This document shows positions 1 through 61,402 of a stretch of 64,000 nucleotides of DNA, in pieces (the first letter of the stretch is position 1; every line of letters starts with the position of its first letter). The DNA is from Escherichia phage Gostya9: the sequence record NC_047979.1; one strand, given 5' to 3'. The notes under the pieces were generated by a model, which was given only the letters and a program-made list of their open reading frames with translations, did not search any database and had not been told where the DNA came from. Made by a program: the position numbers and the translations under genes.

Positions 1-408
1 AATACAGTAACGTCTATTATTTTCCAGTTTAAGTCAAGGTGACTTAGTGGTTATGCCCTGCGGTATACTGGGGACTCGGTTAGGTTAGGGTCATGACTTC
101 CTACCTTTTTGCTGCTACTCAACAGGAGTTATCGCGAATTACCTGTGCTATTGTGCACCATTAGTGGCATCTCTCATGCCAGCATTTCCCACTTTGTGGA
201 TAGTTTGAAAAACTACTCCGATATGGAGGGAGAACTTCACTATCCTAGAATACCTTCTAAAGTTCTTCTTTAGCCTGGACATAGTTAAATCGTAATAAAA
301 CTATTCAGCAGACTGGTTGGTTAGCCTGGAACCAACTACCGCGTGGTTTAGGCAGTGCGCAACTAACCTCGGAAGCTTTTACGTTAAAAGCACCAGTTAT
401 CCAGTTCT

Positions 409-480
409 TACCGATCGTAGGATTCGAACCTACATCTTCCACCAGTTACGGCTTGATAATACCGTTTATACTAGATCGGC
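409..480 (-). tRNA. tRNA-like element (possibly degenerate tRNA or pseudo-tRNA); anticodon not assignable
   Basis: Minus-strand sequence GCCGATC...GTAGG-TTCGAAT-CCTAC-GATCGGT-A gives a canonical T-arm (5-bp stem, TTCGAAT loop) and a 7-bp acceptor stem with G1-U71 and discriminator A. The 40 nt between them do not fold into standard D and anticodon arms by hand (only an ACGG/CCGT 4-bp stem with a 10-nt loop). It lies directly downstream of an early-type promoter at 557-585. Confidence 0.4.
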
Positions 481-556
481 AGTGTTACTACATAAGTGAT
501 TTCCACACCCCACTATTTATAACTTAGAGAAGAATTACTCTCTAATTTATGAATAT

Positions 557-4449: not shown

Positions 4450-4965
4450 TTACTTCGCTTTACGTTTACGAGCTGGTTTAGCGGATTTACGAGCAGAATC
4501 ACCCGTAAATTTAATACCCACACCATAGCATAGAGCACGAACGTTATCTTTGCTATATTCTACGCCGAAGATATTTGGCTTAACAGAACCAAACTGGCCA
4601 CGAGTATCACGCAGTACATCTGCCGTTGGTTTACGCTTCTGGTTAACTGCTTTCTCATAGTCTTTCATGGCCATGCCATTACGAGGGAACAACTCAGCTC
4701 CAGCATTGAAACTCAGTGTTACTGGAACAGATTTGTGACCGTAACCCTGTACATAGGTTACGAGGCGGACTACAGAACGAGTAGCATTCTTAGCCTTCGG
4801 CTTTTGACGAATCGGAGCCGGACGATTCAGTGCCTGTGCAGCTTGAGCATCAGTAGGATGCTTGCGCAGGTGGCGTTCCAGACGAGCTTTGCGGTTAGCC
4901 TCAGTCTGTGGGAAAGTTTTAACTGCCGGAGCTGCTTGAGTTTTTGCGTTTTTCTGCTTAGCCAT
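4450..4965 (-). CDS. basic hypothetical protein (171 aa)
   Basis: ATG start 39 nt downstream of the promoter at 5004-5032; Lys/Arg-rich N- and C-termini. Confidence 0.55.
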   Translation of the reverse strand: MAKQKNAKTQAAPAVKTFPQTEANRKARLERHLRKHPTDAQAAQALNRPAPIRQKPKAKNATRSVVRLVTYVQGYGHKSVPVTLSFNAGAELFPRNGMAMKDYEKAVNQKRKPTADVLRDTRGQFGSVKPNIFGVEYSKDNVRALCYGVGIKFTGDSARKSAKPARKRKAK

Positions 4966-23459: not shown

Positions 23460-23870
23460 ATGACTACTCCAACTCAGTGGACTGATGAACTGTTTGAAAA
23501 AATGTCTTCCGAATACGTTGCTCGTATGGAGCAATTCCCAGAGGATGAACGTCCGAGTGTTAGCATGGAAATTGTTAGTGAAATTGCCCAGGAAAATGGT
23601 GTAACTCCGAACGGTTTTCGTATGAAGCTGACTAAAGCAGGTTTGTATATCAAGAAAGCTGCTGGCTCCGCTTCTAAATCTAGTGCATCTACTGGAGAAA
23701 AAGCTTCCGGTGGTTCTCGTACCTCCAAAGCCCAGGCCCATGCGGATCTTCGTTCAGCATTCTCTGATGCTGGCTTAGCACCAGATTTTCTGGATGATGC
23801 AATTATCGACAAACTGACTGGTAAAGCGGCTGCTCATCTGGCTGAAGCAATCCGAGCTATCACTAAGTAA
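23460..23870 (+). CDS. hypothetical protein with Ser/Ala-rich linker (136 aa), codon-optimised
   Basis: ATG with AAGGAAA RBS; low-complexity central segment (AAGSASKSSASTGEKASGGSRTSKA); codons biased toward ctg/cgt/ggt. Confidence 0.6.
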   Translation: MTTPTQWTDELFEKMSSEYVARMEQFPEDERPSVSMEIVSEIAQENGVTPNGFRMKLTKAGLYIKKAAGSASKSSASTGEKASGGSRTSKAQAHADLRSAFSDAGLAPDFLDDAIIDKLTGKAAAHLAEAIRAITK

Positions 23871-23884
23871 TAGGGAGATTATAC

Positions 23885-24172
23885 ATGAATAAACAAGAAA
23901 TTATCTCCGCATGTGAAGCCCATAATGAGTTCTACCTTCATTATGAGAAACTACGCCAAAAGGGTACTACATACCTTCAGGGTACTATGGATTTTTCTGA
24001 TAAGTACCTAAGTAAACGTTTTGCTCAGGAGCGTATCCGTCAACCAAAAGATGACGAAATTCTAGTGTTTAGTCGCACTAATGACAGCTTCCGTTTCATT
24101 CCTGTTGCGAAAGTTCGTCGCATTACGAGCCTTCAGTCAGAGTTAGATCGTGCTTCTCCAGTAGGCCGATAA
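23885..24172 (+). CDS. hypothetical protein (95 aa)
   Basis: ATG with GGGAG RBS; followed by the terminator at 24184-24206. Confidence 0.55.
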   Translation: MNKQEIISACEAHNEFYLHYEKLRQKGTTYLQGTMDFSDKYLSKRFAQERIRQPKDDEILVFSRTNDSFRFIPVAKVRRITSLQSELDRASPVGR

Positions 24173-24183
24173 GATAGCAATTA

Positions 24184-24206
24184 AGCCCCTATATGGGGCT
24201 TTTTGT
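24184..24206 (+). terminator. rho-independent terminator
   Basis: Hairpin AGCCCC-TATAT-GGGGCT followed by TTTTT. Confidence 0.65.
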
Positions 24207-24223
24207 GTATTTGAGAAACGTAA

Positions 24224-24532
24224 ATGAGCGATCAGGTAAACCAAAACTATGAAGGACACGTTGATGATCAGTCAATCCTTCTATGGGAAAAAGAAGGGGA
24301 ACAAATAAGATTGACAGTATCTGAATTTCGTGGGAATCTATACATGGGAATTAGGTATTGGCTCCAGGATATTACTGGAGAATGGTTTCCAACGAAATCC
24401 GGCTTCTCTTTTCCGTACACTCTAGAAACTACTTCGCAGCTATTCTATGCTTTTACGCAAATCCTTAGTGAATCTGAGGTTCTTGCCGAAGTACAGAAAC
24501 GAGCTGAAGAACTCAAAGCCAAGAATGCCTAG
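24224..24532 (+). CDS. hypothetical protein (102 aa)
   Basis: ATG-initiated ORF flanked by two terminators. Confidence 0.55.
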   Translation: MSDQVNQNYEGHVDDQSILLWEKEGEQIRLTVSEFRGNLYMGIRYWLQDITGEWFPTKSGFSFPYTLETTSQLFYAFTQILSESEVLAEVQKRAEELKAKNA

Positions 24533-24546
24533 TTCTTGGCTTTTTC
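24518..24546 (+). terminator. rho-independent terminator
   Basis: Hairpin GCCAAGAA-TGCCTAG-TTCTTGGC followed by TTTTT. Confidence 0.65.
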
Positions 24547-24559
24547 TTTATAAATGTAT

Positions 24560-24588
24560 TTGCTTTCAACTCAGTTTTGTTATATAAT
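24560..24588 (+). promoter_or_regulatory. sigma70-type early promoter (TTGCTT-N17-TATAAT)
   Basis: TTGCTT, 17-bp spacer, TATAAT, 30 nt upstream of the ligase N-terminal gene. Confidence 0.55.
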
Positions 24589-24619
24589 ATTTATATAAAT
24601 TAATGAGAGATATAAATAA

Positions 24620-25591
24620 ATGACTAATGTAAAAGAATTTATTAAACGCTGTCAAGAAGCATATTATCAGGGCATGTCTTTAATCTCTGATGAGGAGTAT
24701 GATCGCCTGGTAAAACGCTTCCCGTTAGAGGAAGAGATCGGGCCTAAGGGTGATATTCCACACCTATATCGTATGTATTCTTTACAGAAAGTTTATTATA
24801 ATCGTGGAGATAAACCCCCATTTGACCCGTTAGGTCAAGTAGAAACTGATAAGTTAGATGGTTGTGCGATTTCCCTGCTATATATTAACGGTGAATTTGT
24901 TCAAGCACTAACTCGTGGTAATGGTATTCTGGGAAATGATGTCACAAGCAACGTAAGATTGCTGAACATCCCTAAAAAGATTTCCCAAAAAGTACCTACT
25001 CAAATCACTGGTGAAGTTCTAATTACAAAAGAAGTAGAAAATAAACGTAACTTTGCCTCTGGTGCTATTAACCTCAAAGATAGTGATGATTTCATGCAAC
25101 GTATCGGGGAAGGTGGTTTAATCTTCGTTGCATACGGTATCCAGTGTTCTGCTGAATCTGTAGGTATTACAGAAGCGTATTTAAAAGATATGCTTTGGCT
25201 AGAGAATGAGAACTTCTTAACAGTTGTTAATGTGCGTTCCTTCTTTAAATGGATTCCGACGGACGGTAAAGTTGTTCGTATTAATGACAATAACAAATTC
25301 TTCCGTGAAGGTTGGACTAATAAATTTCCTCGTGGGGCATTCGCTATTAAAGAGGATGAAGAAGGCGAGATTACAACTCTTACTAAAGTTGAATGGCAGG
25401 TAGGGGCTTCTGGTAAAGTAACTCCAGTCGGTTATTTTGAACCAGTAATTATTGATGATGCTACAATTGTTAAAGCGACTCTTAATAATGTTGATTATAT
25501 TAACTCTCTCGATCTAGAGATCGGTTGCCAGATTCGAGTGATTCGTGCTGGTGGTGTAATCCCGTGCATAGTAGAGCGAGTTTATGATTAA
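24620..25591 (+). CDS. ligA: NAD-dependent DNA ligase, N-terminal subunit (adenylation + OB-fold domains)
   Basis: 323 aa with the KxDG adenylation motif (DKLDGCAIS) and an OB-fold segment (EWQVGASGKVTPVGYFEPVIIDDATIVKATLNN); ends before the Zn-finger region. Confidence 0.75.
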   Translation: MTNVKEFIKRCQEAYYQGMSLISDEEYDRLVKRFPLEEEIGPKGDIPHLYRMYSLQKVYYNRGDKPPFDPLGQVETDKLDGCAISLLYINGEFVQALTRGNGILGNDVTSNVRLLNIPKKISQKVPTQITGEVLITKEVENKRNFASGAINLKDSDDFMQRIGEGGLIFVAYGIQCSAESVGITEAYLKDMLWLENENFLTVVNVRSFFKWIPTDGKVVRINDNNKFFREGWTNKFPRGAFAIKEDEEGEITTLTKVEWQVGASGKVTPVGYFEPVIIDDATIVKATLNNVDYINSLDLEIGCQIRVIRAGGVIPCIVERVYD

Positions 25592-25641
25592 TACATAACC
25601 CTTTGCTACCCCTCTACCATATCGGAATTATAAAGTGGTTA

Positions 25642-25670
25642 TTGACATTTTCGCCGCTTAGGTATATACT
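25642..25670 (+). promoter_or_regulatory. sigma70 promoter in the ligase inter-subunit gap (TTGACA-N17-TATACT)
   Basis: TTGACA, 17-bp spacer, TATACT. Confidence 0.45.
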
Positions 25671-25734
25671 ATTATCATTCAGTTGAGGGATAGAAAGTTA
25701 TGGCGAGGGTAAGCAAAGTTAGTTAAAATTGTAG

Positions 25735-25763
25735 TTGCTAAATGCTTAAATACTTGCTATAAT
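25735..25763 (+). promoter_or_regulatory. sigma70-type early promoter (TTGCTA-N17-TATAAT, extended -10 TGcTATAAT)
   Basis: TTGCTA, 17-bp spacer, TATAAT, then ATAAATTGATAAGGAAG box/RBS before the ATG at 25794. Confidence 0.55.
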
Positions 25764-25793
25764 ATTTATATAAATTGATAAGGAAGAAATTTG

Positions 25794-26573
25794 ATGAAAA
25801 TCGAAATTCCAACACAATGTCCCTCTTGTGGTTCTAAGCTAGATCTTGTCAACGGACAATTATTCTGTCGTAATAAGTCCAACTGTCCAGCGCAATCAAG
25901 TAAGTTAATTGAGAACTTCTGTACAAAAATGAAGTTAAAGGGCTTTGGCCCGAAAACTATTGAGAAGCTGGAGCTGACGAAGATTTCAGAACTATTTTAC
26001 CTAACCGAAGAAGATTTGGTTAGAGCCGTGGGTAGCAAGGTTGCCGCTAAGTTAATTAGCGAATTAAATACTAAAGTTCGCGGAGACATTGACTTTGGTT
26101 CAGTTCTCGGTTCTTTAGGAATCCCTCTAATTGGAGAGGTTGCAGCAAAGAAATTATCCCAAAATTGCACTAGCTTCCACGATGTGAAGGCTGACGGCAG
26201 GGCTGGAGAAAACTATAAAGCCTGGCTAAATTCCCCACAAGGCAAGGATGTTATCGAATTACCGTGGAAATTCACAACCGGTATTAAAGGTGCTAAAGCT
26301 GAGGTCAGCATTACTGATGGTCTAGTAGCCCAACCAAATGGAATCACGGTGTGTATTACCGGATCTTTGCAAGATTTTGCAAATAGAACGGATGCAACAA
26401 ACTATCTAGAAGGTCTAGGGTATACTGTTAAAAAATCAGTTACCAAAGACGTTAAATACCTCATCTGTGAGGATGAATCTAAGCGTTCTTCCTCATCTTA
26501 TAAGAAAGCCGAAACGAATGGGATAGAAATCCTGTCGATTAAAGAACTATTGGAGAAAAATAATAATGTCTAA
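25794..26573 (+). CDS. ligB: NAD-dependent DNA ligase, C-terminal subunit (Zn-finger, HhH, BRCT-like)
   Basis: Starts with the four-Cys zinc-finger region (CPSCGSKLDLVNGQLFCRN...C) that follows the OB-fold in bacterial LigA, then HhH-like and C-terminal BRCT-like segments; 259 aa. Confidence 0.7.
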   Translation: MKIEIPTQCPSCGSKLDLVNGQLFCRNKSNCPAQSSKLIENFCTKMKLKGFGPKTIEKLELTKISELFYLTEEDLVRAVGSKVAAKLISELNTKVRGDIDFGSVLGSLGIPLIGEVAAKKLSQNCTSFHDVKADGRAGENYKAWLNSPQGKDVIELPWKFTTGIKGAKAEVSITDGLVAQPNGITVCITGSLQDFANRTDATNYLEGLGYTVKKSVTKDVKYLICEDESKRSSSSYKKAETNGIEILSIKELLEKNNNV

Positions 26574-27333
26574 ACTGAACTGGAACGTAGAAGGTGTAAC
26601 CGAGTCTCTGAAAGCAAAAGCCACTGCTCTGGGTGTTGCTGTAATCTCTCAAGAACAAGTAGCTGCTATCGCTGCTGAACTGGCTGCTGAAACTGGCAAA
26701 GACGTTACCGCTCGCTCTGTTGGCTCTAAGCTGCGTAAAGAAGGTTTCGAAGTACAGAAAGCTAACGAAGTACAGAAATCCCCGTGGACTCCTGAGCAGG
26801 AAGCTGAACTGGTTGATTTCCTGAACTCTCATGCTGGTCAGTATACTTATGCTGAAATCGCTGCTGCTGTAGCTGGTGGTCAATTTGGTGCTAAGCAGGT
26901 ACAGGGTAAGATCCTGAGTCTGGAAATGACCGCTTCTGTTAAACCAACTGAAAAAGCTGCTGCTGTTCGTTCCTTCACTCCTGATGAAGAAACTGATTTT
27001 GTTAATCAGGTTGTTGCTGGTGCTACTATTGAAGCTATTGCTGCTCACTTCGGTCGTAATATCAAGCAGATCCGTGGTAAAGCTCTGAGTCTGCTTCGTG
27101 AAGGTCGTATCGCTGCTATGCCGGTACAGGAAACTTCAAGTGCTAAAACTCGTGAAGATCTGCTAGAAGGTCTGGATCTGGCTAACATGACTGTTGCTGA
27201 GATCGCTGAGAAAACTGGTAAGTCTGAGCGCGGTGTTAAATCTATGCTGTCTCGTCGTGGTCTGGTTGCTAAGGACTATGATGGTGCCGCTAAGCGTGCT
27301 AAACTGGATGCAAAAGCTGCGGCTGCTGAATAA
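26566..27333 (+). CDS. abundant DNA-binding protein candidate with three internal repeats
   Basis: 255 aa; strongly host-optimised codons; three related segments (AAIAAELAAETGK..., YAEIAAAVAGGQFGAKQVQGKILSL, ATIEAIAAHFGRNIKQIRGKALSL) resembling HTH units. Position before helicase/primase/polymerase would fit a D5-like protein. Confidence 0.5.
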   Translation: MSKLNWNVEGVTESLKAKATALGVAVISQEQVAAIAAELAAETGKDVTARSVGSKLRKEGFEVQKANEVQKSPWTPEQEAELVDFLNSHAGQYTYAEIAAAVAGGQFGAKQVQGKILSLEMTASVKPTEKAAAVRSFTPDEETDFVNQVVAGATIEAIAAHFGRNIKQIRGKALSLLREGRIAAMPVQETSSAKTREDLLEGLDLANMTVAEIAEKTGKSERGVKSMLSRRGLVAKDYDGAAKRAKLDAKAAAAE

Positions 27334-27352
27334 TCTGGTAAATTAAACCTAA

Positions 27353-27382
27353 GGGGTGGGGGCTATGCCTCTACCCCTTTTT
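27353..27382 (+). terminator. rho-independent terminator
   Basis: GC-rich hairpin GGGGTGGGGGC / GCCTCTACCCC (with G-U pairs) followed by TTTTT. Confidence 0.55.
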
Positions 27383-27415
27383 GCATTTAGAAGGCACGAA
27401 AGCGTGCAAAGGAGA

Positions 27416-28888
27416 ATGACCTTGTTTAACGTGCAAGCTGTAGTGTTGAAGATGCTTCTAGCTTCCGAACAGAAGCAAATAGCATTGGAAACATTCTCAA
27501 AACTGCATAAAGATCATTTTAATGACGCTTTCTCCTCAATTTACCAAGCCGTCCAGAATTATTATAAAAAATATAACACAATGCCGTCCATTGACGCACT
27601 GATGCTTGAGGCTAATAGGAACGCCCGCCTTTCTCAAGCTCTAGTCGTTTTAGCTAACACTCAAATTCCAGAAGTTAGCATGGAACAGGCACTTGAAGTC
27701 CTAGAGGCCGAGTATACACAGGATTTATTCCTGAAGCTTCTAGAAACAGACGTGCTTCAAGATTTAACAATGCTGGATCAGGGAGAAATTCTTAACCGAG
27801 TTGCCTCCCTTCACTTAAAATTAGAAGAGAAAGTAACGAATACTGGAAAAGTATTCAACGCAGATAACATGCGTATTTTCCAGAGAGAAGAAGATACCAA
27901 ACTGAACTTAATCGCTCTTGGTATTTGTAATGAGTTCGACGCTCAAATTGGTTTAGCTCGCACAGAAACGTTACTGCTTGGTGGTTGGCGTGGTACTGGT
28001 AAATCCATTATCTGTTCAAACATACAGGTTCAGCAATATTTGAATGGAGATATTGCTCCATACTTCTCAATTGAGATGAAAGAACATGAAGTATTTAGAC
28101 GTAATCTAGCTATGTTAGCTGGTGTATCAGCACTAGCAATGCGTAATAATACTCTAGAAGGTGCAGCTCTGTTGAGATTAGCCAGAACTAGAGCTAGGAT
28201 GTTTAACGGTGGTGAAGAGCTTTTCGATAACTTCGTTAAACAGTACACAATGGCTAAGATGAGTGATTTCTACGATATGGAAAGTAAGCTAATAGAAGGA
28301 TATGAGCTACATACTCCTATGATTATTGTTTATGATCCTGAGCTGTCTATTACAACAGTTGACGTAGAATTAAATAAATTAGTTGCTAGATATGGGGATA
28401 AAGTTACAGTAGCTTTACTAGACTATATTAACCAAACCCGACTTCCAGACTCTAAAACCATTGATATGTATGACTGGAAAGAACAGATGGTTGTTAGCTC
28501 GTCTTTCAAATCTATCTGCCAGAAACATAACGTGGCTGGTGTAGCTCCTTACCAGATCGATCAAGATGGTAGAACACGTATGTCGAAGGGGATTCTTGAT
28601 TCCGCAGACATGGCTGCTAATCTTAATGCTGCAAAAGCTGATAATGGTCAAGGTGCTATTATGTTTGACTTCGTTAAGACTCGGTCTTCTGATAGCGTGA
28701 AGTTTATGCCTAAAATGAACTGGGAAACCCTGCGGATGGATAACACTACCAACCTAGCAATGGAAGATATATCTCAAATGGAAGCTGAGTTCGTTATCCC
28801 TATTGAGAAGGATAAGCCGACTCAATCTAAACGTGCTAAGAAAGACAAAGCTGAAAATTCAACAGGTGAACAGGCCAGCGATATATGA
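27416..28888 (+). CDS. DnaB-like replicative DNA helicase
   Basis: About 490 aa with RecA-like P-loop (LLGGWRGTGKSIIC). ATG at 27416 with AAAGGAGA RBS, downstream of the terminator; the track ORF begins upstream inside the hairpin. Confidence 0.6.
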   Translation: MTLFNVQAVVLKMLLASEQKQIALETFSKLHKDHFNDAFSSIYQAVQNYYKKYNTMPSIDALMLEANRNARLSQALVVLANTQIPEVSMEQALEVLEAEYTQDLFLKLLETDVLQDLTMLDQGEILNRVASLHLKLEEKVTNTGKVFNADNMRIFQREEDTKLNLIALGICNEFDAQIGLARTETLLLGGWRGTGKSIICSNIQVQQYLNGDIAPYFSIEMKEHEVFRRNLAMLAGVSALAMRNNTLEGAALLRLARTRARMFNGGEELFDNFVKQYTMAKMSDFYDMESKLIEGYELHTPMIIVYDPELSITTVDVELNKLVARYGDKVTVALLDYINQTRLPDSKTIDMYDWKEQMVVSSSFKSICQKHNVAGVAPYQIDQDGRTRMSKGILDSADMAANLNAAKADNGQGAIMFDFVKTRSSDSVKFMPKMNWETLRMDNTTNLAMEDISQMEAEFVIPIEKDKPTQSKRAKKDKAENSTGEQASDI

Positions 28889-29418
28889 TAACACAGGAAA
28901 GGCTAAAAGAGTTATTTGATTACTCCCCAGTTTCTGGGGAGTTTACTAGAAAAGTATCTAGAGGTAATCAGAAAGCTGGTAGTATAATAACCAGAAAAGA
29001 CTCTAACGGTTATATAATTATTGGTATAGATGGCAAGGATTACAAAGCCCATCGGATGGCTTTTCTATTTATGGAAAATACATTGCCGGAAAAAGTAGAC
29101 CATGTAAACAGAATACCTTTTGATAATAGGTGGTGTAATCTAAGAGACGCCACAGCTCAGGAAAATAGTAGAAATAAAACCGCATGTAGTAAGTCTGGAT
29201 ATTTGGGAGTTGCTTGGGATATCGAAAAACAAAGATGGAGAGTTCAAGTAAGAGACTCTAATAGCACTCTTAAAAATGGTGGCAGATTTAAGTATGAAGA
29301 GCTAGAGCTAGCTGTAAATTCAGCAAATATATTAAGGACTAAGTTACATGGAGAACGTGCTGTTATAGAAATTTTTGATACATCTAATTATCCTTCACTG
29401 GAGGAGTTAAATTCATGA
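28885..29418 (+). CDS. HNH homing endonuclease
   Basis: HVNRIPFDNRWCNLRDATAQENSRN matches the HNH catalytic motif (H...N...N). 177 aa, inserted between helicase and primase with overlapping start/stop codons. Confidence 0.7.
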   Translation: MITQERLKELFDYSPVSGEFTRKVSRGNQKAGSIITRKDSNGYIIIGIDGKDYKAHRMAFLFMENTLPEKVDHVNRIPFDNRWCNLRDATAQENSRNKTACSKSGYLGVAWDIEKQRWRVQVRDSNSTLKNGGRFKYEELELAVNSANILRTKLHGERAVIEIFDTSNYPSLEELNS

Positions 29419-30367: not shown

Positions 30368-33300
30368 TTGAAAATTGCAGTAGTTGATAAAGCTCTAAAC
30401 AACACTCGTTATGATAAACATTTCCAGCTATACGGCGAGGAAGTTGATGTATTCCATATGTGTAACGAGAAGTTATCCGGTCGTTTGCTCAAAAAGCATA
30501 TTACTATCGGGACCCCGGAAAACCCATTTGACCCGAATGATTATGATTTTGTTATACTGGTAGGTGCCGAACCTTTCCTGTACTTTGCGGGTAAGAAAGG
30601 TATTGGTGATTATACTGGTAAACGTGTAGAGTATAATGGATATGCTAACTGGATTGCTAGTATCAGCCCAGCCCAGTTACACTTTAAACCTGAAATGAAA
30701 CCAGTTTTTGATGCAACAGTAGAGAGTATCCACGATATTATCAATGGTCGTGAGAAGATTGCAAAAGCTGGTGATTACCGTCCTATTACTGACCCTGATG
30801 AGGCAGAAGAATATATCAAGATGGTGTATAATATGGTTATCGGACCTGTCGCATTCGACTCCGAAACCTCAGCACTATACTGTCGAGATGGTTATCTGCT
30901 TGGTGTTTCTATTTCTCACCAAGAGTATCAGGGTGTATATATCGATTCTGATTGTCTCACAGAGGTTGCAGTATATTATCTCCAGAAAATTCTGGATAGT
31001 GAAAACCACATTATTGTTTTTCACAACTTGAAGTTTGATATGCACTTTTATAAGTACCATCTGGGACTTACTTTTGATAAAGCACATAAAGAACGCAGGC
31101 TCCATGATACCATGTTGCAGCACTATGTTCTAGATGAACGTCGTGGTACTCATGGCTTGAAATCTCTAGCAATGAAGTATACCGATATGGGTGACTATGA
31201 CTTCGAACTAGATAAGTTCAAAGATGATTACTGCAAAGCACATAAAATCAAGAAAGAAGATTTCACCTATGATCTGATTCCGTTTGATATTATGTGGCCA
31301 TATGCATGTCTTACTCACGATTCCCAAGTTCGGATGGCTTCAGGGAATTGGAAGACTATTGGGGAACTTGTTCGCACCAAATCTACAGAAGCTGTAGTAT
31401 CATTCAACGAGTCAACTGGGCAATTTGAGAACAAACCGATTACTGGATGGTATAAAAATGAACATAAATCCAAGCAATGGAAGAAGTTAATAGTTAAATC
31501 TCAGCAAAGAAACTCTAAGGGTACTATTAATGGGCCAGTATTTACACCAGATCATAGGGTATTAACTCAGAATGGATACATAGAAGTCCAAGATATTATT
31601 CCAGGACAGGATAAAATCCTAACTGAAGAACTTGCTTTACCATCTGATAGTAAGCAAGTATTAATGGCATCCCTATTTGGGGATGGTGCTCTGGTATCTA
31701 GAAATAATTGGGGCGCGGGTCTACAACTGACACAGTCAGAAGCGCATAAAGAGTATCTAGATTTTAAGGCAGCCTCTCAAGTAGAAACACCAACTCTTAG
31801 TTCCTCTACAAAAGGAGATAAAAAAGCATATACGTATAGTTTCCCCTATACCTCGGAGTATTCTGACTTATTCTCTACCTTAGAGGTACGAGATAATACT
31901 ACAAAATATAAGTTAAAAATTACTAAGAAAAATCTAGAAGGGTTAGATGAAAAAGCACTAGCTATTTGGTATCAAGATGATGGTAACCTGCCACAAGGAA
32001 ACGCACGCATTTGGTCTAGAACAGTTGCTGATTGTAAAGAAGAGCAGCAAAATTTCATAGAATGGTGTAAAAATCTAGGCATTACAGCACGCTACCATAA
32101 CGATGGAGAAAATAACCAGTTCTTTGTATTAGATAATGAAGAACTATTCCCTTTGATTGCTCCATATATGCATAGCTCTATGGCTTACAAGGTGCCAGAA
32201 AGATTCAAGCACTTAGTAGGAACAGGAACTTGGGATTTTTCAACATCTAAGTACTACTATGCAGAAGTGTATGGGGTTGAGGATTGGGTAGTTCCAGCCT
32301 CTAGAAGAGGTTACTCTACCAGTTGGTGTATAGATGTAAAAGATAACCATAACTTTGTAACTAAAGTTGGTGTAGTTCACAACTGTAAAGATACAGATGC
32401 TACCATACGTTTGCACAACTTCTTCTTACCAAAAATTGAGAAGAATGAAAAACTTTGCAGTCTATATTACGATGTTCTAATGCCTGGTTGTGTATTCCTA
32501 CAGCGTGTCGAAGATCGTGGTGTACCTATCTCTATTGATCGTTTGAAAGAAGCTCAGTATCAATTGACTCATAATTTGAATAAAGCCCGTGAGAAACTGT
32601 ATACTTATCCAGAAGTTAAACAGCTAGAACAAGATCAGAATGAAGCATTTAACCCGAACTCTGTTAAGCAGCTGCGTGTTCTTCTGTTCGATTATGTTGG
32701 TTTGACTCCAACTGGTAAGTTAACGGATACTGGTGCAGATTCTACGGATGCAGAAGCTCTGAATGAACTGGCTACGCAGCATCCAATTGCTAAAACTCTA
32801 CTAGAGATTCGTAAGCTGACTAAGCTGATCTCTACTTATGTTGAGAAGATTCTTCTGAGTATTGATGCAGATGGTTGCATTCGTACTGGTTTCCATGAAC
32901 ATATGACTACTTCTGGTCGTCTGAGTTCTTCTGGTAAACTGAACCTGCAACAGCTACCTCGTGATGAATCTATCATTAAGGGTTGTGTAGTTGCACCACC
33001 TGGATACCGTGTAATCGCATGGGACTTAACAACTGCGGAAGTTTATTATGCTGCTGTTCTATCTGGTGATAGAAATATGCAACAAGTATTTATCAACATG
33101 AGAAATGAACCCGATAAATACCCTGACTTCCACTCTAACATCGCCCACATGGTATTTAAATTGCAATGTGAACCTCGTGATGTTAAAAAGTTATTCCCAG
33201 CTCTGCGTCAAGCAGCTAAGGCAATTACCTTTGGTATTTTGTACGGTTCTGGCCCGGCTAAAGTAGCACATTCTGTTAACGAAGCATTGCTAGAACAAGC

Positions 33301-34012
33301 AGCCAAAACTGGGGAACCATTTGTTGAATGTACTGTTGCAGATGCTAAAGAGTACATTGAGACTTACTTTGGTCAATTCCCACAGCTTAAGCGTTGGATT
33401 GATAAGTGCCACGATCAAATCAAGAATCATGGGTTTATCTATAGTCACTTTGGTCGTAAACGTCGTCTACATAATATCCACTCTGAAGACCGTGGCGTTC
33501 AGGGTGAAGAAATTCGTTCTGGGTTTAACGCAATCATTCAGTCTGCTTCTTCTGATAGTCTCCTTTTAGGTGCTGTAGATGCAGATAATGAGATCATTTC
33601 TCTTGGCCTAGAACAAGAGATGAAGATTGTTATGCTGGTTCATGACTCCGTAGTTGCTATTGTTCGTGAAGACTTGATTGATCAATACAATGAAATTCTG
33701 ATTCGTAATATTCAGAAAGACCGTGGTATCAGTATTCCTGGCTGTCCGATTGGTATTGATTCAGATTCTGAAGCTGGAGGTTCTCGTGACTATTCTTGTG
33801 GTAAGATGAAGAAACAGCACCCATCAATCGCTTGTATTGATGATGACGAATATACTCGTTACGTTAAAGAAATGCTTCTTGATTCTGAATTCGAGTATAA
33901 GAAATTAGCTGCAATGGATAAAGAGCATCCAGATCATAGCAAATACAAGGATGATAAGTTTATTGCTGTATGTAAGGATCTGGATAACGTGAAAAGGGTT
34001 CTCGGTGCTTAA
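30368..34012 (+). CDS. DNA polymerase (family A, T5 D7-9-like) interrupted by an in-frame intein
   Basis: 1214-aa ORF starting at TTG 30368 with AAGAGGAG RBS. Removing the 359-aa insert leaves 855 aa, the T5 polymerase size as I recall it. C-terminal region carries Pol I palm-like motifs (KAITFGILYGSG; HDSVV). Confidence 0.85.
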   Translation: MKIAVVDKALNNTRYDKHFQLYGEEVDVFHMCNEKLSGRLLKKHITIGTPENPFDPNDYDFVILVGAEPFLYFAGKKGIGDYTGKRVEYNGYANWIASISPAQLHFKPEMKPVFDATVESIHDIINGREKIAKAGDYRPITDPDEAEEYIKMVYNMVIGPVAFDSETSALYCRDGYLLGVSISHQEYQGVYIDSDCLTEVAVYYLQKILDSENHIIVFHNLKFDMHFYKYHLGLTFDKAHKERRLHDTMLQHYVLDERRGTHGLKSLAMKYTDMGDYDFELDKFKDDYCKAHKIKKEDFTYDLIPFDIMWPYACLTHDSQVRMASGNWKTIGELVRTKSTEAVVSFNESTGQFENKPITGWYKNEHKSKQWKKLIVKSQQRNSKGTINGPVFTPDHRVLTQNGYIEVQDIIPGQDKILTEELALPSDSKQVLMASLFGDGALVSRNNWGAGLQLTQSEAHKEYLDFKAASQVETPTLSSSTKGDKKAYTYSFPYTSEYSDLFSTLEVRDNTTKYKLKITKKNLEGLDEKALAIWYQDDGNLPQGNARIWSRTVADCKEEQQNFIEWCKNLGITARYHNDGENNQFFVLDNEELFPLIAPYMHSSMAYKVPERFKHLVGTGTWDFSTSKYYYAEVYGVEDWVVPASRRGYSTSWCIDVKDNHNFVTKVGVVHNCKDTDATIRLHNFFLPKIEKNEKLCSLYYDVLMPGCVFLQRVEDRGVPISIDRLKEAQYQLTHNLNKAREKLYTYPEVKQLEQDQNEAFNPNSVKQLRVLLFDYVGLTPTGKLTDTGADSTDAEALNELATQHPIAKTLLEIRKLTKLISTYVEKILLSIDADGCIRTGFHEHMTTSGRLSSSGKLNLQQLPRDESIIKGCVVAPPGYRVIAWDLTTAEVYYAAVLSGDRNMQQVFINMRNEPDKYPDFHSNIAHMVFKLQCEPRDVKKLFPALRQAAKAITFGILYGSGPAKVAHSVNEALLEQAAKTGEPFVECTVADAKEYIETYFGQFPQLKRWIDKCHDQIKNHGFIYSHFGRKRRLHNIHSEDRGVQGEEIRSGFNAIIQSASSDSLLLGAVDADNEIISLGLEQEMKIVMLVHDSVVAIVREDLIDQYNEILIRNIQKDRGISIPGCPIGIDSDSEAGGSRDYSCGKMKKQHPSIACIDDDEYTRYVKEMLLDSEFEYKKLAAMDKEHPDHSKYKDDKFIAVCKDLDNVKRVLGA
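31307..32383 (+). mobile_element. intein with LAGLIDADG homing-endonuclease domain inside the DNA polymerase
   Basis: Begins with Cys (CLTHDSQVRMASGNW, block A), TPDH (block B TxxH), two LAGLIDADG-like motifs (LMASLFGDGAL and IWYQDDGNL), ends VVHN followed by extein +1 Cys (CKDTD). Confidence 0.75.
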
Positions 34013-36071: not shown

Positions 36072-36356
36072 ATGCTTACAGAGCCTGATGCTCACCAATT
36101 ATTGGTCGGTTCCTCATTCATTTTGAATGAATCAACAATAGTTGATAATCCAAATAAATTGTCTAATAGACAACTGGCAGAATATCTAGGAATTTTAAGT
36201 CTACGAAATTATGCCGAATACAAGTTTACAAACGATCCTAGTTTGGACATACAATATGTTCCAGTATGGATACCACGTTTAGTAATCGACACTAACCCAC
36301 TAATCGCAATTAACAAATCGAAATTAATCTTTAAAGAGGAAATAAAATATGGCTAA
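36072..36356 (+). CDS. hypothetical protein (94 aa), uncertain
   Basis: ATG-initiated ORF without a clear RBS; its stop overlaps the start of the next gene. Confidence 0.3.
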   Translation: MLTEPDAHQLLVGSSFILNESTIVDNPNKLSNRQLAEYLGILSLRNYAEYKFTNDPSLDIQYVPVWIPRLVIDTNPLIAINKSKLIFKEEIKYG

Positions 36357-37122
36357 GTCTTGGGGCGAAACTACTGGCGGTTCTAACGATAAAATCGAAT
36401 TCCTGAAGTTCAATAACGGTATCACTCGTGTTCGTATCGTTTCTGGTGTTCTTCCACGTTATGTTTATTGGCTGACTAATAAAGAAGGTGGCGTAGCTCC
36501 TTTCGAATGTCTCCGTTTTAACCGTGACAAAGAGAGCTTTGTTCGTGGTAAAGCTGATCCGGTTCATGAGATGGGCTTCTTTGAGAAAGAGCTGGATAAA
36601 GATGGTAATCGCGTTCCACTGAAACCGAAGAAAAACTATATCGCTTTTGTTATCGACCGTTCTGATAACAAACTGAAAGTAATGGAAGTCAAAGCTACTA
36701 TTCTGAAAGGCATCCAGTCTATCATGAAACAGTTGAATCTGGCAACTCCGTTTGATATTGATATTTCTATCGAGAAAAAAGGCAAAGGTTTCGATACTGA
36801 GTATGATGTACAGCAGATTGCTGCTATGCAGTTCCAGATTAAGCTACAAGATCCTAACAGTGCAGAATCTAAGCAATATGCTGCAGATGTAGATCTGATT
36901 GGTGAAGCTATGTGTGATGAAGATGGCGACATCATTAAGTTCGAGAAAGTTCCTTCTCTGGAACAAACCTATCCGGTTCCTACCTATGAAGAGCAGAAAG
37001 AAGCAATTCAAGCCTTCATGGAAGGTCGTGAGAATAAAGATGATGATGCCAAGTCTGGTAATAGCAATGCTGGTTCCCAGAAAGGTATTGACCAAGAAGC
37101 TGCAAGCGATCTGGACGACTAA
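36349..37122 (+). CDS. putative ssDNA-binding protein (acidic C-terminal tail), D11-position gene
   Basis: 257 aa; strong RBS AAAGAGGAAAT; host-optimised codons; acidic C-terminus ending ...EAASDLDD as in phage SSBs. Function inferred, not demonstrated. Confidence 0.45.
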   Translation: MAKSWGETTGGSNDKIEFLKFNNGITRVRIVSGVLPRYVYWLTNKEGGVAPFECLRFNRDKESFVRGKADPVHEMGFFEKELDKDGNRVPLKPKKNYIAFVIDRSDNKLKVMEVKATILKGIQSIMKQLNLATPFDIDISIEKKGKGFDTEYDVQQIAAMQFQIKLQDPNSAESKQYAADVDLIGEAMCDEDGDIIKFEKVPSLEQTYPVPTYEEQKEAIQAFMEGRENKDDDAKSGNSNAGSQKGIDQEAASDLDD

Positions 37123-60025: not shown

Positions 60026-61402
60026 TTAAGATGCAGCGTAAGCACCGGATACAACGCCGTTCTCGAAGTAACGTTGCAGGTTAACACGCTGAGTAACGTA
60101 GTATGCGTCACGCTGTTTGCCAGCTTGGCGCTCACGTTCAACAGTAACAGCACGCTGACGTGGCATCACGAAGTTATCTTTATAAACAATAACCGCGAAC
60201 TCTTTACCAGCTGCTTTAGCTGGGAAGTACTCAGAAACTACAACCGGCAGACCATAAATACGACCAACCTGACCCTGCAGTTTAACAGCATCATTACCAA
60301 CCTGAGCAACATCCTGCCATTCTTCGTCTTCCAGCAGATCGTAGTAAGCATCCATAGATACAATCAGTACCAGTTTGGACAGTTTCAGACCATGACGGCC
60401 CAGCTTACGACGCAGTTTAGAGATAGTTTTAGCAGTTACCAGAACAGAACCATCAGCTTTAGCTTCGGTAGTAACTTTAGCACTATCTTCACTAGCAAGA
60501 GTCAGCAGACCTTTCGGCTTACCGGAACCATCACCAGTCATGAAGGCTTCTTCAATAGAAACAGCGTGTGCTTCAATTAGACGCTTACGAAGCAGTGGCA
60601 GCAGGGAGAAGATTGCATCTTCTTCAGTTTCATCAGTAATGAAGGATTTAGCAGCCAGTTTGTAAGTACTGAAGTGGATTTCTGTAAGAGCGCCTGTAAC
60701 TTCGCTACCAGTAGTATTGTCACTACCATAAGCAGAAGCAGCAACCCAAGTAGCTCTACCAGCATCCGGTTCAACCAACATAGTAAGAATCTTACTGGAC
60801 ATCGGCAGTTCTTCGAACAGTGCGCCAACTACCAGCTCTTTCTGCAGGTCACGGATAATACGCTGAGAGAAAATAGTTTCATAGCTTTCACTAGAAACTT
60901 CTACAGAAGAGGACTGATTCACTGCTTTCAGGTGTTTTTGACCGTGTTCGGTTTCAAATACGCCTTTTTCCATTACATAGGACAACAGAACCAGTTTTTC
61001 TACTTCGTCTTCAAAGTTTTCCTGAGTACCATACAGTGCTTTAGCAACACTATTACCAACGAAGGAACGACCTTCACGAGCTGTTAGCAGGGATTTAATT
61101 TCGTCCTGAAGACCAACAATAGTTTCCTGTTGTTTTTCTACAGTTTGTGCAAACAGTTCTGCACTCTTCTTAGATTTTTCATCCAGGGACTTAACCAGTT
61201 CCAGAGCTTGTTCCAGTTTCTGACGATCTTCGCCAACTGCTTTAGAAACCAGGGCATTCATACGAGCCAGTTCTTTTTCTTCCTGCTCTTTACGCATACG
61301 TTCAGCTTCCTGAGCTTTCTGAGCAGCGGTCAGACCTTCCAGAGATTTAGCCAGATCACCCAGACCAAGTTCTTCTTTCAGCTTATTAATATCAATAGTC
61401 AT
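60026..61402 (-). CDS. major capsid protein precursor (pb8-like, HK97 fold with N-terminal scaffolding domain)
   Basis: 458 aa, which matches the T5 pb8 precursor length as I recall it; N-terminal about 150 aa coiled-coil (KLKEELGLGDL...QEEKELARM...), host-optimised codons. Confidence 0.8.
   Translation of the reverse strand: MTIDINKLKEELGLGDLAKSLEGLTAAQKAQEAERMRKEQEEKELARMNALVSKAVGEDRQKLEQALELVKSLDEKSKKSAELFAQTVEKQQETIVGLQDEIKSLLTAREGRSFVGNSVAKALYGTQENFEDEVEKLVLLSYVMEKGVFETEHGQKHLKAVNQSSSVEVSSESYETIFSQRIIRDLQKELVVGALFEELPMSSKILTMLVEPDAGRATWVAASAYGSDNTTGSEVTGALTEIHFSTYKLAAKSFITDETEEDAIFSLLPLLRKRLIEAHAVSIEEAFMTGDGSGKPKGLLTLASEDSAKVTTEAKADGSVLVTAKTISKLRRKLGRHGLKLSKLVLIVSMDAYYDLLEDEEWQDVAQVGNDAVKLQGQVGRIYGLPVVVSEYFPAKAAGKEFAVIVYKDNFVMPRQRAVTVERERQAGKQRDAYYVTQRVNLQRYFENGVVSGAYAAS

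What the first reader, a model, noticed from the sequence alone, without database searches (positions are those of the whole stretch)
26566..27333. Codon-optimised DNA-binding candidate with three internal HTH-like repeats
This gene, like 23460-23870, 36349-37122 and the capsid gene, uses strongly host-preferred codons against an AT-rich background, implying very high expression. The protein has three related about 30-aa segments ending in xQ(V/I)(Q/R)GK(I/A)LSL, suggesting a tandem DNA-binding array.
Basis: partly seen in the sequence, partly recalled or inferred. Interest (0 to 1): 0.35.

Follow-up and report, generated by a model that had tools for sequence, protein, structure and literature searches.

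The report
Phage T5 D5 DNA-binding protein gene
This gene is the long-known, very abundant double-stranded-DNA-binding protein D5 of T5-like phages; it is ordinary as a discovery, though it turns out to be built from four, not three, small helix-turn-helix DNA-binding modules.

Summary
The ORF 26566-27333 (+, 255 aa) is real. It is the ortholog of bacteriophage T5 gene D5: 99% nucleotide identity to genes annotated "D5 protein/DNA-binding protein" in Tequintavirus genomes, and PHROG 323 "transcriptional regulator, D5-like" at E 1.7e-71. It lies in the conserved replication module ligA-ligB-D5-DnaB-primase-PolA.

The codon observation is confirmed. Its E. coli CAI of 0.70 is the highest of 56 ORFs (median 0.26) and z = 15 against recoding with background codons.

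The repeat observation is partly right. The strict motif Q(V/I)(Q/R)GK(I/A)LSL occurs twice, not three times. Those two units are clearly homologous (0/1000 shuffles; profile-profile 96%). Two further degenerate units bring the total to four three-helix HTH domains (AlphaFold2 pLDDT 93).

DNA binding by D5 was established in 1979, and a 2026 preprint shows D5 triggers a type IX retron. The gene is already known. The four-fold GcrA-like array is a modest added detail. Interest is low.

The parts
26566..27333 (+). D5 gene: 255-aa abundant early double-stranded-DNA-binding protein of T5-like phages (27.0 kDa, pI 6.8)
   Evidence: ORF. 99% nt identity to annotated D5 genes in 512 phage records. 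PHROG 323 'D5-like' at E 1.7e-71 over aa 1-253. Annotation of DT571/2. Residues G53, W74, V149 and G232, named for T5 D5 in PMC13405049, are all present at those positions.
26578..26745 (+). HTH unit 1 (aa 5-60): helices 11-22, 29-43, 49-58; recognition helix ARSVGSKLRKEG
   Evidence: AF2 secondary structure. Invariant R50, K55, L56, R57. hhalign to unit 4 is 51%, E 1.6e-4. Weak match to an engrailed homeodomain variant, E 0.006.
26782..26925 (+). HTH unit 2 (aa 73-120): helices 76-88, 95-101, 109-118; carries motif copy QVQGKILSL (aa 111-119, nt 26896-26922)
   Evidence: Invariant Q113, G114, K115, L117. The combined unit 2+3 profile aligns to GcrA DBD residues 2-48, hhalign 94%.
26971..27105 (+). 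HTH unit 3 (aa 136-180): helices 139-150, 155-162, 166-178; carries motif copy QIRGKALSL (aa 168-176, nt 27067-27093)
   Evidence: Invariant G171, K172. This is the unit most like the GcrA DBD: hhalign score 30.7 against 9.0 +/- 2.3 for shuffled GcrA.
27151..27270 (+). HTH unit 4 (aa 196-235): short helix 205-207, helices 210-217 and 221-231; recognition helix ERGVKSMLSRRG; sigma-70 region 4-like HTH core
   Evidence: Pfam Sigma70_r4_2 at aa 204-230, 29.7 bits against cut-off 25.7. AF2. Invariant G223, L228, R230, R231. hhalign to unit 3 is 80%.
27283..27327 (+). C-terminal helix (aa 240-254) after the conserved DYDGAAKRAKLD segment; role unknown (possibly a protein-protein contact or cooperativity)
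   Evidence: AF2 helix 240-254. D237 and G240 invariant, K246 nearly invariant. The role is inference only.
27351..27384 (+). Intrinsic terminator directly after the D5 stop: 13-bp stem, 3-nt loop, T-run
   Evidence: Terminator scan. RNA fold -25.7 kcal/mol, z -2.9. No Rfam family in 24000-29000.
25642..25763 (+). Two strong sigma-70 promoter-like sites upstream of ligB; candidate promoters of a ligB-D5 transcript (inferred)
   Evidence: TTGACA-17-TATACT (11/12) at 25642-25670 and TTGCTA-17-TGnTATAAT (10/12) at 25735-25763. The total number of such sites is not above shuffles, so this is weak. The D5 ATG overlaps the end of ligB by 8 nt.

Best explanation
This is the T5 gene D5 ortholog: an early, very highly expressed, non-enzymatic protein that binds double-stranded DNA.

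Architecture. The protein is a string of four small three-helix helix-turn-helix domains at aa 5-60, 73-120, 136-180 and 196-235. They are joined by short, partly conserved linkers and followed by one C-terminal helix. Units 2 and 3 are a clear internal duplication and are remote homologs of the GcrA-type DNA-binding domain. Units 1 and 4 are more diverged HTH domains, and unit 4 has a sigma region-4-like core.

Most likely mechanism (inferred).
- Each unit lays its basic, highly conserved third helix (R-S-x-G-x-K-L-R, Q-G-K-x-L-S-L, R-G-K-x-L-S-L, R-G-x-K-x-x-L-x-R-R-G) into a DNA major groove.
- One monomer therefore contacts several successive grooves.
- The residues that give GcrA its base specificity are not kept, so binding is largely independent of sequence.
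- Large amounts of D5 coat phage duplex DNA in the replication/transcription compartment. This is why the gene has ribosomal-protein-like codon usage and its own terminator.

Link to phenotype. Coating of the template is the probable route by which D5 affects DNA replication and the early-to-late transcription switch reported in the literature. The same HTH surface is what the type IX retron-Kva2 senses.

What is shown and what is inferred.
- Shown here: identity, architecture, conservation pattern, codon bias, synteny.
- Taken from the literature: DNA binding, the replication and late-gene phenotype, the retron trigger.
- Inferred: groove-by-groove binding, lack of sequence specificity from the residue pattern, and coating as the mechanism.
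For: Identity:
- 99% nt identity to annotated D5 genes in 512 phage records.
- PHROG 323 'D5-like' at E 1.7e-71.
- Neighbours are D2, D3, ligA, ligB, dnaB, primase and pol, as in DT571/2.
- The same order is kept in about 50%-identical relatives.

Architecture:
- AF2 pLDDT 92.9, four helix triplets plus a C-terminal helix. pTM 0.52 fits beads on a string.
- Unit 2 against unit 3: z 8.1, 0/1000 shuffles; hhalign 96%.
- Units 3-4 give 80% and units 1-4 give 51%.
- A natural 5-unit variant, P0121, has unit 2 duplicated.

Fold:
- The unit 2+3 profile against GcrA 1-49 gives hhalign 94%, E 1.2e-7.
- Unit 3 scores 30.7 against 9.0 +/- 2.3 for shuffled GcrA.

Functional surface:
- The third helices are the most conserved part: 0.80 against 0.63 overall, 0/10000 random sets. 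They hold 20 of the 37 positions at or above 90% within the helices, linkers and C-tail tabulated.
- They carry net charge +1 to +4, while the whole protein is neutral.
- In the alignment, D5 G114-K115 fall on GcrA G38-K39, and by the unit 2/3 alignment so do G171-K172. D5 W74 falls on W3 and T94 on S20. All of these GcrA residues contact DNA (PMC5887438).
- GcrA's base-reading R33, N34, H41 and R42 are replaced.
- Retron-escape substitutions G53D and G232D hit nearly invariant glycines, in and just after the recognition helices of units 1 and 4.

Abundance:
- CAI 0.70, rank 1 of 56, z 15; ENC 31.
- The other high-CAI genes encode stoichiometric proteins: capsid, an SSB-like protein, the D3 DNA-binding protein.
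- D5 is among the major virion-associated proteins of phage phiR2-01 (PMC8624392).

Literature:
- D5 runs as a 26-kDa monomer and binds retron msdDNA through its HTH (PMC13405049).
Against: - No DNA-bound structure or footprint exists. The relative arrangement of the four units is not predicted with confidence (pTM 0.52).
- The sequence relationship of units 1 and 4 to units 2 and 3 is weak. HMM scores are only just above shuffled controls, so 'four copies of one repeat' could instead be two repeats plus two unrelated HTH domains.
- The GcrA link fails Pfam's own model. There is no PF07750 hit for the whole protein, and only 1 of 30 repeat sequences hits, at E 0.035.
- The PDB sequence search puts GcrA at E 0.62.
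- The protein has no net positive charge (pI 6.8), which is unusual for a DNA-coating protein.
- Cooperative, sequence-independent duplex binding rests on my memory of 1979-1983 biochemistry papers that the library does not hold.
ENC and the raw codon table are independent of them.
Confidence: 0.85

Rival explanations
1. D5 is primarily a sequence- or structure-specific transcription factor. In this reading it is a GcrA-like or sigma-appropriating activator of T5 late promoters and repressor of early ones. It would act through contacts with host RNA polymerase, and its effect on replication would be secondary.
For: - The repeats resemble the DNA-binding domain of GcrA, a monomeric activator that works with sigma-70.
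- Unit 4 passes the Pfam Sigma70_r4_2 cut-off.
- The PHROG name is 'transcriptional regulator, D5-like'.
- The 1979 title links D5 to late gene expression.
- How T5 switches from early to late transcription is still unknown (PMC7472727).
Against: - No counterpart of GcrA's sigma-interacting domain was detected. There is no PF07750 hit, and the C-terminus is a single 15-aa helix.
- GcrA's base-reading residues are not conserved.
- Capsid-level codon optimisation and abundance fit a stoichiometric DNA-coating role better than a regulatory one.
- The gene sits inside the replication module, not next to late genes.
- The two roles are not mutually exclusive.
Confidence: 0.2
2. It is an alternative RNA polymerase sigma factor, as annotated in Salmonella phage Shivani.
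For: - Pfam Sigma70_r4_2 scores 29.7 bits, above its 25.7-bit cut-off, at aa 204-230. There are also weak Sigma70_r4 and Sigma70_r3 hits.
- The record KP143763 names the gene 'RNA polymerase sigma factor'.
Against: - Only 27 residues, the HTH core, match.
- There is no Sigma70_r2 hit even at E <= 10.
- NCBIfam sigma70-ECF scores 15.2 bits against a 42.9-bit cut-off.
- The rest of the protein consists of three more HTH units, not sigma regions 1-3.
- T5 genes of all temporal classes are transcribed by the sigma-70 holoenzyme (PMC7472727 abstract).
Confidence: 0.02
3. It is a single-stranded-DNA-binding protein (annotation in Klebsiella phage vB_Kpn_3), or a transposase-like protein (JGI names for some homologs).
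For: - Database names only.
- Weak HTH-level similarity to IS630 and ISAzo13 transposase N-termini, 12-14 bits.
Against: - The model is all-alpha, with no OB fold.
- A separate SSB-like gene is present at 36349-37122 (PHROG 1607, E 2e-106).
- No transposase catalytic domain is present. The hits lie far below cut-offs of 100-200 bits.
Confidence: 0.02

Closest known systems
Bacteriophage T5 D5 protein (T5.118; PHROG 323 'transcriptional regulator, D5-like')
   Same: - Same gene: same length and same residue numbering as T5 D5 (G53, W74, V149, G232).
- 95-99% nt identity to hundreds of Tequintavirus D5 genes.
- Same position between ligB and dnaB.
   Different: Nothing of substance. This copy differs from DT571/2 by about 1% at the nucleotide level.
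GcrA DNA-binding domain of Caulobacter crescentus (PDB 5yiu; Pfam PF07750, N-terminal part)
   Same: - N-terminal W-T-x-E helix, S/T at the start of helix 2, and G-K in the middle of the recognition helix.
- Profile-profile probability 94%.
- Both act as monomers.
   Different: - GcrA has one DBD plus a long linker and a sigma-70-interacting domain. D5 has four HTH units in tandem and no detectable SID.
- GcrA's base-reading residues R33, N34, H41 and R42, which read m6A-GANTC, are not conserved.
- The Pfam GcrA model does not hit D5.
Myb/SANT and homeodomain-like tandem repeats (e.g. c-Myb R1R2R3, SNAPC4, Timeless DBD)
   Same: - Tandem array of about 50-60-aa three-helix units, each starting with an aromatic residue and an acidic helix.
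- Each unit uses helix 3 in the major groove.
   Different: - All scores lie below the family cut-offs.
- The regularly spaced tryptophan triad of Myb is absent.
- D5 is a phage protein expressed at structural-protein levels. By my recollection of older biochemistry, not checked here, it binds without sequence specificity.
Sigma-70 region 4 (Pfam PF08281)
   Same: The HTH core of unit 4 (aa 204-230) passes the Pfam cut-off.
   Different: There is no region 2 or 3 and no core-binding determinants, so the protein is not a sigma factor.

Membership tests
T5 D5 protein family (PHROG 323) | Full-length sequence match to the family profile | tested here: met
   E 1.7e-71, 242 bits, aa 1-253 of 255. 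726 homologs, with full-length alignment at 50-98% identity.
T5 D5 protein family (PHROG 323) | Near-identity to genes annotated D5 in Tequintavirus genomes | tested here: met
   99.0% over 768/768 nt to DT571/2 D5. 430 records fall at 95-99%.
T5 D5 protein family (PHROG 323) | Position in the early replication module (ligA-ligB-D5-dnaB-primase-polA) | tested here: met
   Window ORFs. DT571/2 annotation. Vibrio phage D259 and a JGI contig at about 50% identity.
T5 D5 protein family (PHROG 323) | Binds double-stranded DNA; required for continued replication and late gene expression | not testable with these tools
   Known only from the literature: the title of McCorquodale 1979 (cited in PMC12630848) and HTH-msdDNA binding in PMC13405049. 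The original papers are not held.
Sigma-70 family sigma factors | Region 4 HTH (-35 recognition) | tested here: inconclusive
   PF08281 scores 29.7 bits against 25.7, but covers only profile positions 23-49 of 54. PF04545 scores 18.4, below its 24.1 cut-off.
Sigma-70 family sigma factors | Region 2 (core binding, -10 recognition) | tested here: not met
   No Sigma70_r2 hit at E <= 10. TIGR02937 scores 15.2 bits against a 42.9 cut-off.
GcrA family (Pfam PF07750) | N-terminal three-helix DNA-binding domain | tested here: met
   [not shown]
GcrA family (Pfam PF07750) | Match to the curated family model | tested here: not met
   No PF07750 hit for the whole protein at E <= 10. 1 of 30 repeat sequences hits, at E 0.035. 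PDB profile search puts GcrA at E 0.62.
GcrA family (Pfam PF07750) | C-terminal sigma-70 region-2-interacting domain | tested here: not met
   After unit 4 only a 15-aa helix remains. There is no PF07750 hit. No direct alignment to the SID sequence was run.
GcrA family (Pfam PF07750) | Base-reading residues for methylated GANTC (R33, N34, H41, R42) | tested here: not met
   In the alignment these positions are A109, K110, L117 and S118 in unit 2. By the unit 2/3 alignment they are I166, K167, L174 and S175 in unit 3. GcrA contacts are taken from PMC5887438.
Myb/SANT repeats (Pfam PF00249) | Match to the curated model; tandem three-helix repeats | tested here: not met
   PF00249 scores 18.0 bits against a 24.4 cut-off at aa 71-100. 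9 of 30 repeat sequences give weak hits. The tandem three-helix architecture itself is present.
Single-stranded DNA-binding proteins (OB fold) | OB-fold beta barrel | tested here: not met
   The AF2 model is all-helical at pLDDT 93. There is no SSB family hit.

The most novel reading that the evidence does not exclude
D5 is a phage 'chromatin' protein. In this reading a four-fold tandem array of GcrA-type domains, made in capsid-like amounts, coats replicating T5 DNA. That coat would be the unidentified, non-specific factor that keeps T5-like genomes free of host Dam, Dcm and R-M methylation, and perhaps of restriction. It would also set the template state that switches transcription from early to late.

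PMC10644984 reports that the anti-methylation mechanism of T5/BF23 is unknown and non-specific, and that no soluble inhibitor was found in lysates. A descendant of a methylation-reading domain that occludes the major groove would fit this. Nothing here tests it.
Probability: 0.08. Interest if true: 0.6.

Novelty: already known. Interest (0 to 1): 0.15.

Why it matters
As a discovery it matters little, because the gene is the classical T5 D5 DNA-binding protein. Three points are useful.

- Annotation clean-up. Public records variously call it a sigma factor, an SSB, a transposase or hypothetical. The sigma, SSB and transposase names fail their defining features.
- A concrete domain map. It comprises four HTH units, conserved recognition helices and a link to the GcrA fold. 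This map explains the positions of the published retron-escape mutations. It also gives specific residues to mutate in order to separate D5's replication, transcription and defence-trigger roles.
- Codon bias as a marker. The set of codon-optimised genes (D5, D3, the SSB-like protein, capsid) shows that codon bias in this phage marks stoichiometric DNA-coating and structural proteins.

Tried and rejected
- Sigma-factor reading. Rejected: only the HTH core of region 4 matches, there is no region 2, and NCBIfam scores far below its cut-off.
- SSB and transposase annotations. Rejected: the fold is all-alpha, there is no catalytic domain, and a separate SSB-like gene exists.
- Sequence search of the PDB with the whole-family profile. 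No relative with a solved structure was found; the best hit was a designed engrailed variant at E 0.006.
- PDB search with the repeat profile. The top hit was an entry named 'CAP REPEAT' (8vd6). It matched five weak, individually non-significant stretches on the generic helix1-helix2 segment, so I did not pursue it.
- BFVD fold search. It returned only D5 orthologs and loosely similar multi-HTH phage proteins with low TM-scores.
- Rfam scan of 24000-29000. No RNA family was found.
- The 169-aa ORF on the minus strand (26539-27048). Its Ser-rich product (SSNSFNSSTSNN...) is the mirror image of the GCT-rich sense strand, so I treat it as an artefact.
- Attempts to read the original D5 papers (PMC355262, PMC353123) and Davison 2015 (PMC4743489). 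None is held.
- The DRT4 paper. It concerns T5 ORF55, not D5.
- Literature search for 'T5.118/D5-like'. It returned only unrelated papers.
- The HMM of units 2+3. It does not convincingly recover units 1 and 4, so I do not claim that all four are copies of one repeat at the sequence level.
Full report
**What is there.** Window 26566-27333 (+) is an intact ORF of 255 codons, from ATG to TAA. Its start overlaps the last 8 nt of the upstream gene. A strong intrinsic terminator follows 18 nt after the stop: 27351-27379, a 13-bp stem with a T-run, -25.7 kcal/mol, z -2.9. No Rfam family is present in 24000-29000. The 169-aa ORF on the opposite strand is a mirror artefact of the GCT-rich sense strand.

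**Identity.**
- The DNA is 99.0% identical over its whole length to the gene annotated "D5 protein/DNA-binding protein" of Escherichia phage DT571/2. It matches 512 phage records, 430 of them at 95-99%.
- The protein matches PHROG 323 "transcriptional regulator, D5-like" at E 1.7e-71 over aa 1-253.
- In DT571/2 the surrounding genes are D2, D3, the split NAD-ligase ligA/ligB, D5, dnaB (D6), primase and DNA polymerase. The window has the same order.
- So do relatives at only about 50% identity, namely Vibrio phage D259 and a JGI metagenome contig.
- The residues named for T5 D5 in a 2026 preprint (G53, W74, V149, G232) are all at those positions here.
- The window is therefore part of a Tequintavirus (T5-like) genome and the gene is D5.

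- The gene's CAI is 0.703, the highest of 56 ORFs. The median is 0.262.
- Recoding the same protein 5000 times with the window's background codon usage gives 0.316 +/- 0.026, so z = 15.
- ENC, which needs no reference set, is 31.1 against 42-55 for most neighbours.
- Leu is CTG in 89% of cases against 19% elsewhere. Ile is ATC in 80% against 23%.
- A fifth is 4450-4965 (DUF7022).
- GC3 is not raised (0.31). The gene's 47% GC reflects 45 alanines, not codon choice.
- In Vibrio phage D259 the D5 gene also has the lowest ENC of its neighbourhood (38.2), though less extremely.
- The inference of very high expression fits proteomics of phage phiR2-01, where D5 is among the major virion-associated proteins (PMC8624392).

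**The repeat observation.**
- The motif as written occurs twice, as QVQGKILSL (111-119) and QIRGKALSL (168-176).
- The two units around these copies are significantly related. Smith-Waterman score is 55, z 8.1, 0/1000 shuffles. On sub-alignments of 34 homologs, hhalign gives 96%, E 2e-9.
- The whole-protein off-diagonal score is exceeded by 3 of 500 shuffles.
- A third, degenerate copy is ERGVKSMLSRRG at 221-232.
- These two are related to each other and to unit 3 at lower confidence: hhalign 51% and 80%, single-sequence z about 3.
- An HMM of units 2+3 finds them only just above shuffled controls.

**Structure.**
- The AlphaFold2 model is confident locally (pLDDT 92.9) but not globally (pTM 0.52).
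- It shows four helix triplets: 11-22/29-43/49-58, 76-88/95-101/109-118, 139-150/155-162/166-178 and (205-207)/210-217/221-231. A C-terminal helix spans 240-254.
- The protein is therefore four three-helix HTH domains with a period of about 57-68 aa.
- A natural homolog with five units (P0121, unit 2 duplicated) and longer arrays of similar units (P0254 and others) show that the module multiplies by duplication.

**What the units resemble.**
- In Pfam, only unit 4 passes a cut-off: Sigma70_r4_2, 29.7 against 25.7 bits, HTH core only. The others give sub-threshold HTH_23, Myb and HTH_33 hits.
- The unit 2+3 profile aligns to this sequence end to end, with hhalign 94%, E 1.2e-7.
- Unit 3 alone scores 30.7 against 9.0 +/- 2.3 for shuffled GcrA. 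Unit 2 scores 16.2, unit 4 scores 17.5 and unit 1 scores 13.9. Unit 2 exceeds the shuffle maximum, while units 4 and 1 only reach it.
- In the alignment the invariant D5 G114-K115 fall on GcrA G38-K39. By the unit 2/3 alignment, G171-K172 do so too. D5 W74 falls on W3 and T94 on S20. All of these GcrA residues contact DNA. The base-reading R33, N34, H41 and R42 are replaced (PMC5887438).
- The curated GcrA model does not hit D5, and no sigma-interacting domain is apparent. D5 is therefore not a member of the GcrA family. Its repeats are best described as GcrA-like HTH domains.

**Where selection acts.**
- Across 34 homologs (50-81% identity), the third helices have mean column conservation 0.80 against 0.63 overall, with 0 of 10,000 random sets reaching that value. 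They hold 20 of the 37 positions at or above 90% within the helices, linkers and C-tail tabulated.
- They carry net charge +1 to +4, whereas the whole protein is neutral (34 K+R, 34 D+E, pI 6.8).
- Two of the retron-escape substitutions reported for T5 D5, G53D and G232D, hit nearly invariant glycines in or just after the recognition helices of units 1 and 4. W74* truncates the protein before unit 2.

**How it most likely works.**
- Shown here: D5 is a monomer-sized string of four HTH domains, its recognition helices are the conserved surface, and the gene is tuned for very high expression inside the replication module.
- From the literature: D5 is a DNA-binding protein affecting replication and late gene expression (McCorquodale 1979, title as cited in PMC12630848). 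It runs as a 26-kDa monomer, and its HTH binds the msdDNA of retron-Kva2, triggering abortive infection (PMC13405049).
- From my own memory of papers not held in the library (Rice et al. 1979; Fujimura & Roop 1983): D5 is the most abundant early protein, binds duplex DNA cooperatively and without sequence specificity, and modulates T5 DNA polymerase on nicked duplex. I could not verify this here.
- Inferred: each unit places helix 3 in a major groove, so one molecule spans several grooves. Loss of GcrA's base-reading side chains makes binding largely sequence-independent. Stoichiometric coating of phage duplex DNA is how replication and the early-to-late switch are affected.

**Rivals.**
- A direct, promoter-specific transcription-factor role (probability about 0.2) is not excluded and is not exclusive of coating. 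Against it are the absence of a sigma-interacting domain, the non-conserved base-reading residues and the capsid-level codon optimisation.
- The sigma-factor annotation fails on region 2.
- The SSB and transposase names fail on fold and domain content.

**Distribution.** A full scan of 1.84 billion representative proteins finds only 537 relatives at E <= 1e-3 and 76 at E <= 1e-30. Most are 235-260 aa. The family is thus small and essentially confined to T5-like phages, with Escherichia, Salmonella, Klebsiella, Pectobacterium, Vibrio and marine metagenome sources.

**Verdict.**
The codon bias is fully confirmed. For the repeats there are two strict and two degenerate copies, making four HTH units.
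- The object is already known. The added value is the domain map, the GcrA-fold link and the correction of conflicting public annotations.
- The most novel reading not excluded is that this abundant groove-occluding protein is the unidentified non-specific factor keeping T5-like DNA unmethylated (PMC10644984). I give it about 8%.

Noticed in passing
window 30458-34012 (+): The DNA polymerase ORF is 1184 aa, against about 855 aa in DT571/2. Residues about 293-642 match Intein_splicing (weak, E 4.7e-4) and a LAGLIDADG homing endonuclease (PF03161, E 8e-10; PHROG 11023). This suggests an intein inserted between the 3'-5' exonuclease and polymerase domains.
   Followed up: partly
window 28885-29418 (+): A 177-aa HNH homing endonuclease (PHROG 99, E 4e-57; PF13392) lies between the DnaB-like helicase and the primase. 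In DT571/2 the two replication genes are adjacent, so this is a mobile insertion.
   Followed up: partly
window 23460-23870, 36349-37122, 4450-4965, 60026-61402: The other strongly codon-optimised genes are D3 (PHROG 1725 'DNA binding protein', no Pfam hit), an SSB-like protein (PHROG 1607), a DUF7022 protein of unknown function and the major head protein. In this phage, codon bias seems to mark stoichiometric DNA-coating and structural proteins. The DUF7022 gene is the odd one out, with no known role.
   Followed up: partly
window 27351-27418 (+): The start of the downstream DnaB-like helicase lies inside the D5 terminator hairpin, both as listed here (GTG 27356) and as annotated in DT571/2 (ATG 27365). 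An in-frame ATG at 27416 sits right after AGGAGA but with only 1 nt of spacing. The true start is unclear.
   Followed up: no
window 24620-26573 (+): The NAD-dependent DNA ligase is split into two genes, ligA at 24620-25591 and ligB at 25791-26573. A 200-nt spacer between them holds two strong promoter-like sites, at 25642-25670 and 25735-25763. ligB has ordinary codon usage (ENC 55) although it probably shares a transcript with D5 (ENC 31).
   Followed up: no
proteins P0237, P0255, P0254, P0121: Relatives with more units exist. P0121 is a 5-unit D5 with unit 2 duplicated. There are also 500-600-aa proteins with a sigma-region-4-like N-terminus followed by four to eight similar HTH units, or about ten tandem units. 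These look like a broader, undescribed class of tandem GcrA/HTH_23-like arrays.
   Followed up: no
window 408-481 (-): There is a single tRNA-Ser gene (anticodon ACT as printed by ARAGORN) at the left edge of the window. It is probably the end of the T5-type tRNA cluster.
   Followed up: no
phage records OR848168.1, OR847187.1; proteins P0020, P0038: Near-identical D5 sequences are deposited under 'Listeria phage' records (13.6 and 4.8 kb, unannotated) and as partial 'Enterococcus faecalis' proteins. For a Tequintavirus gene these are most likely contamination or mislabelled entries.
   Followed up: no
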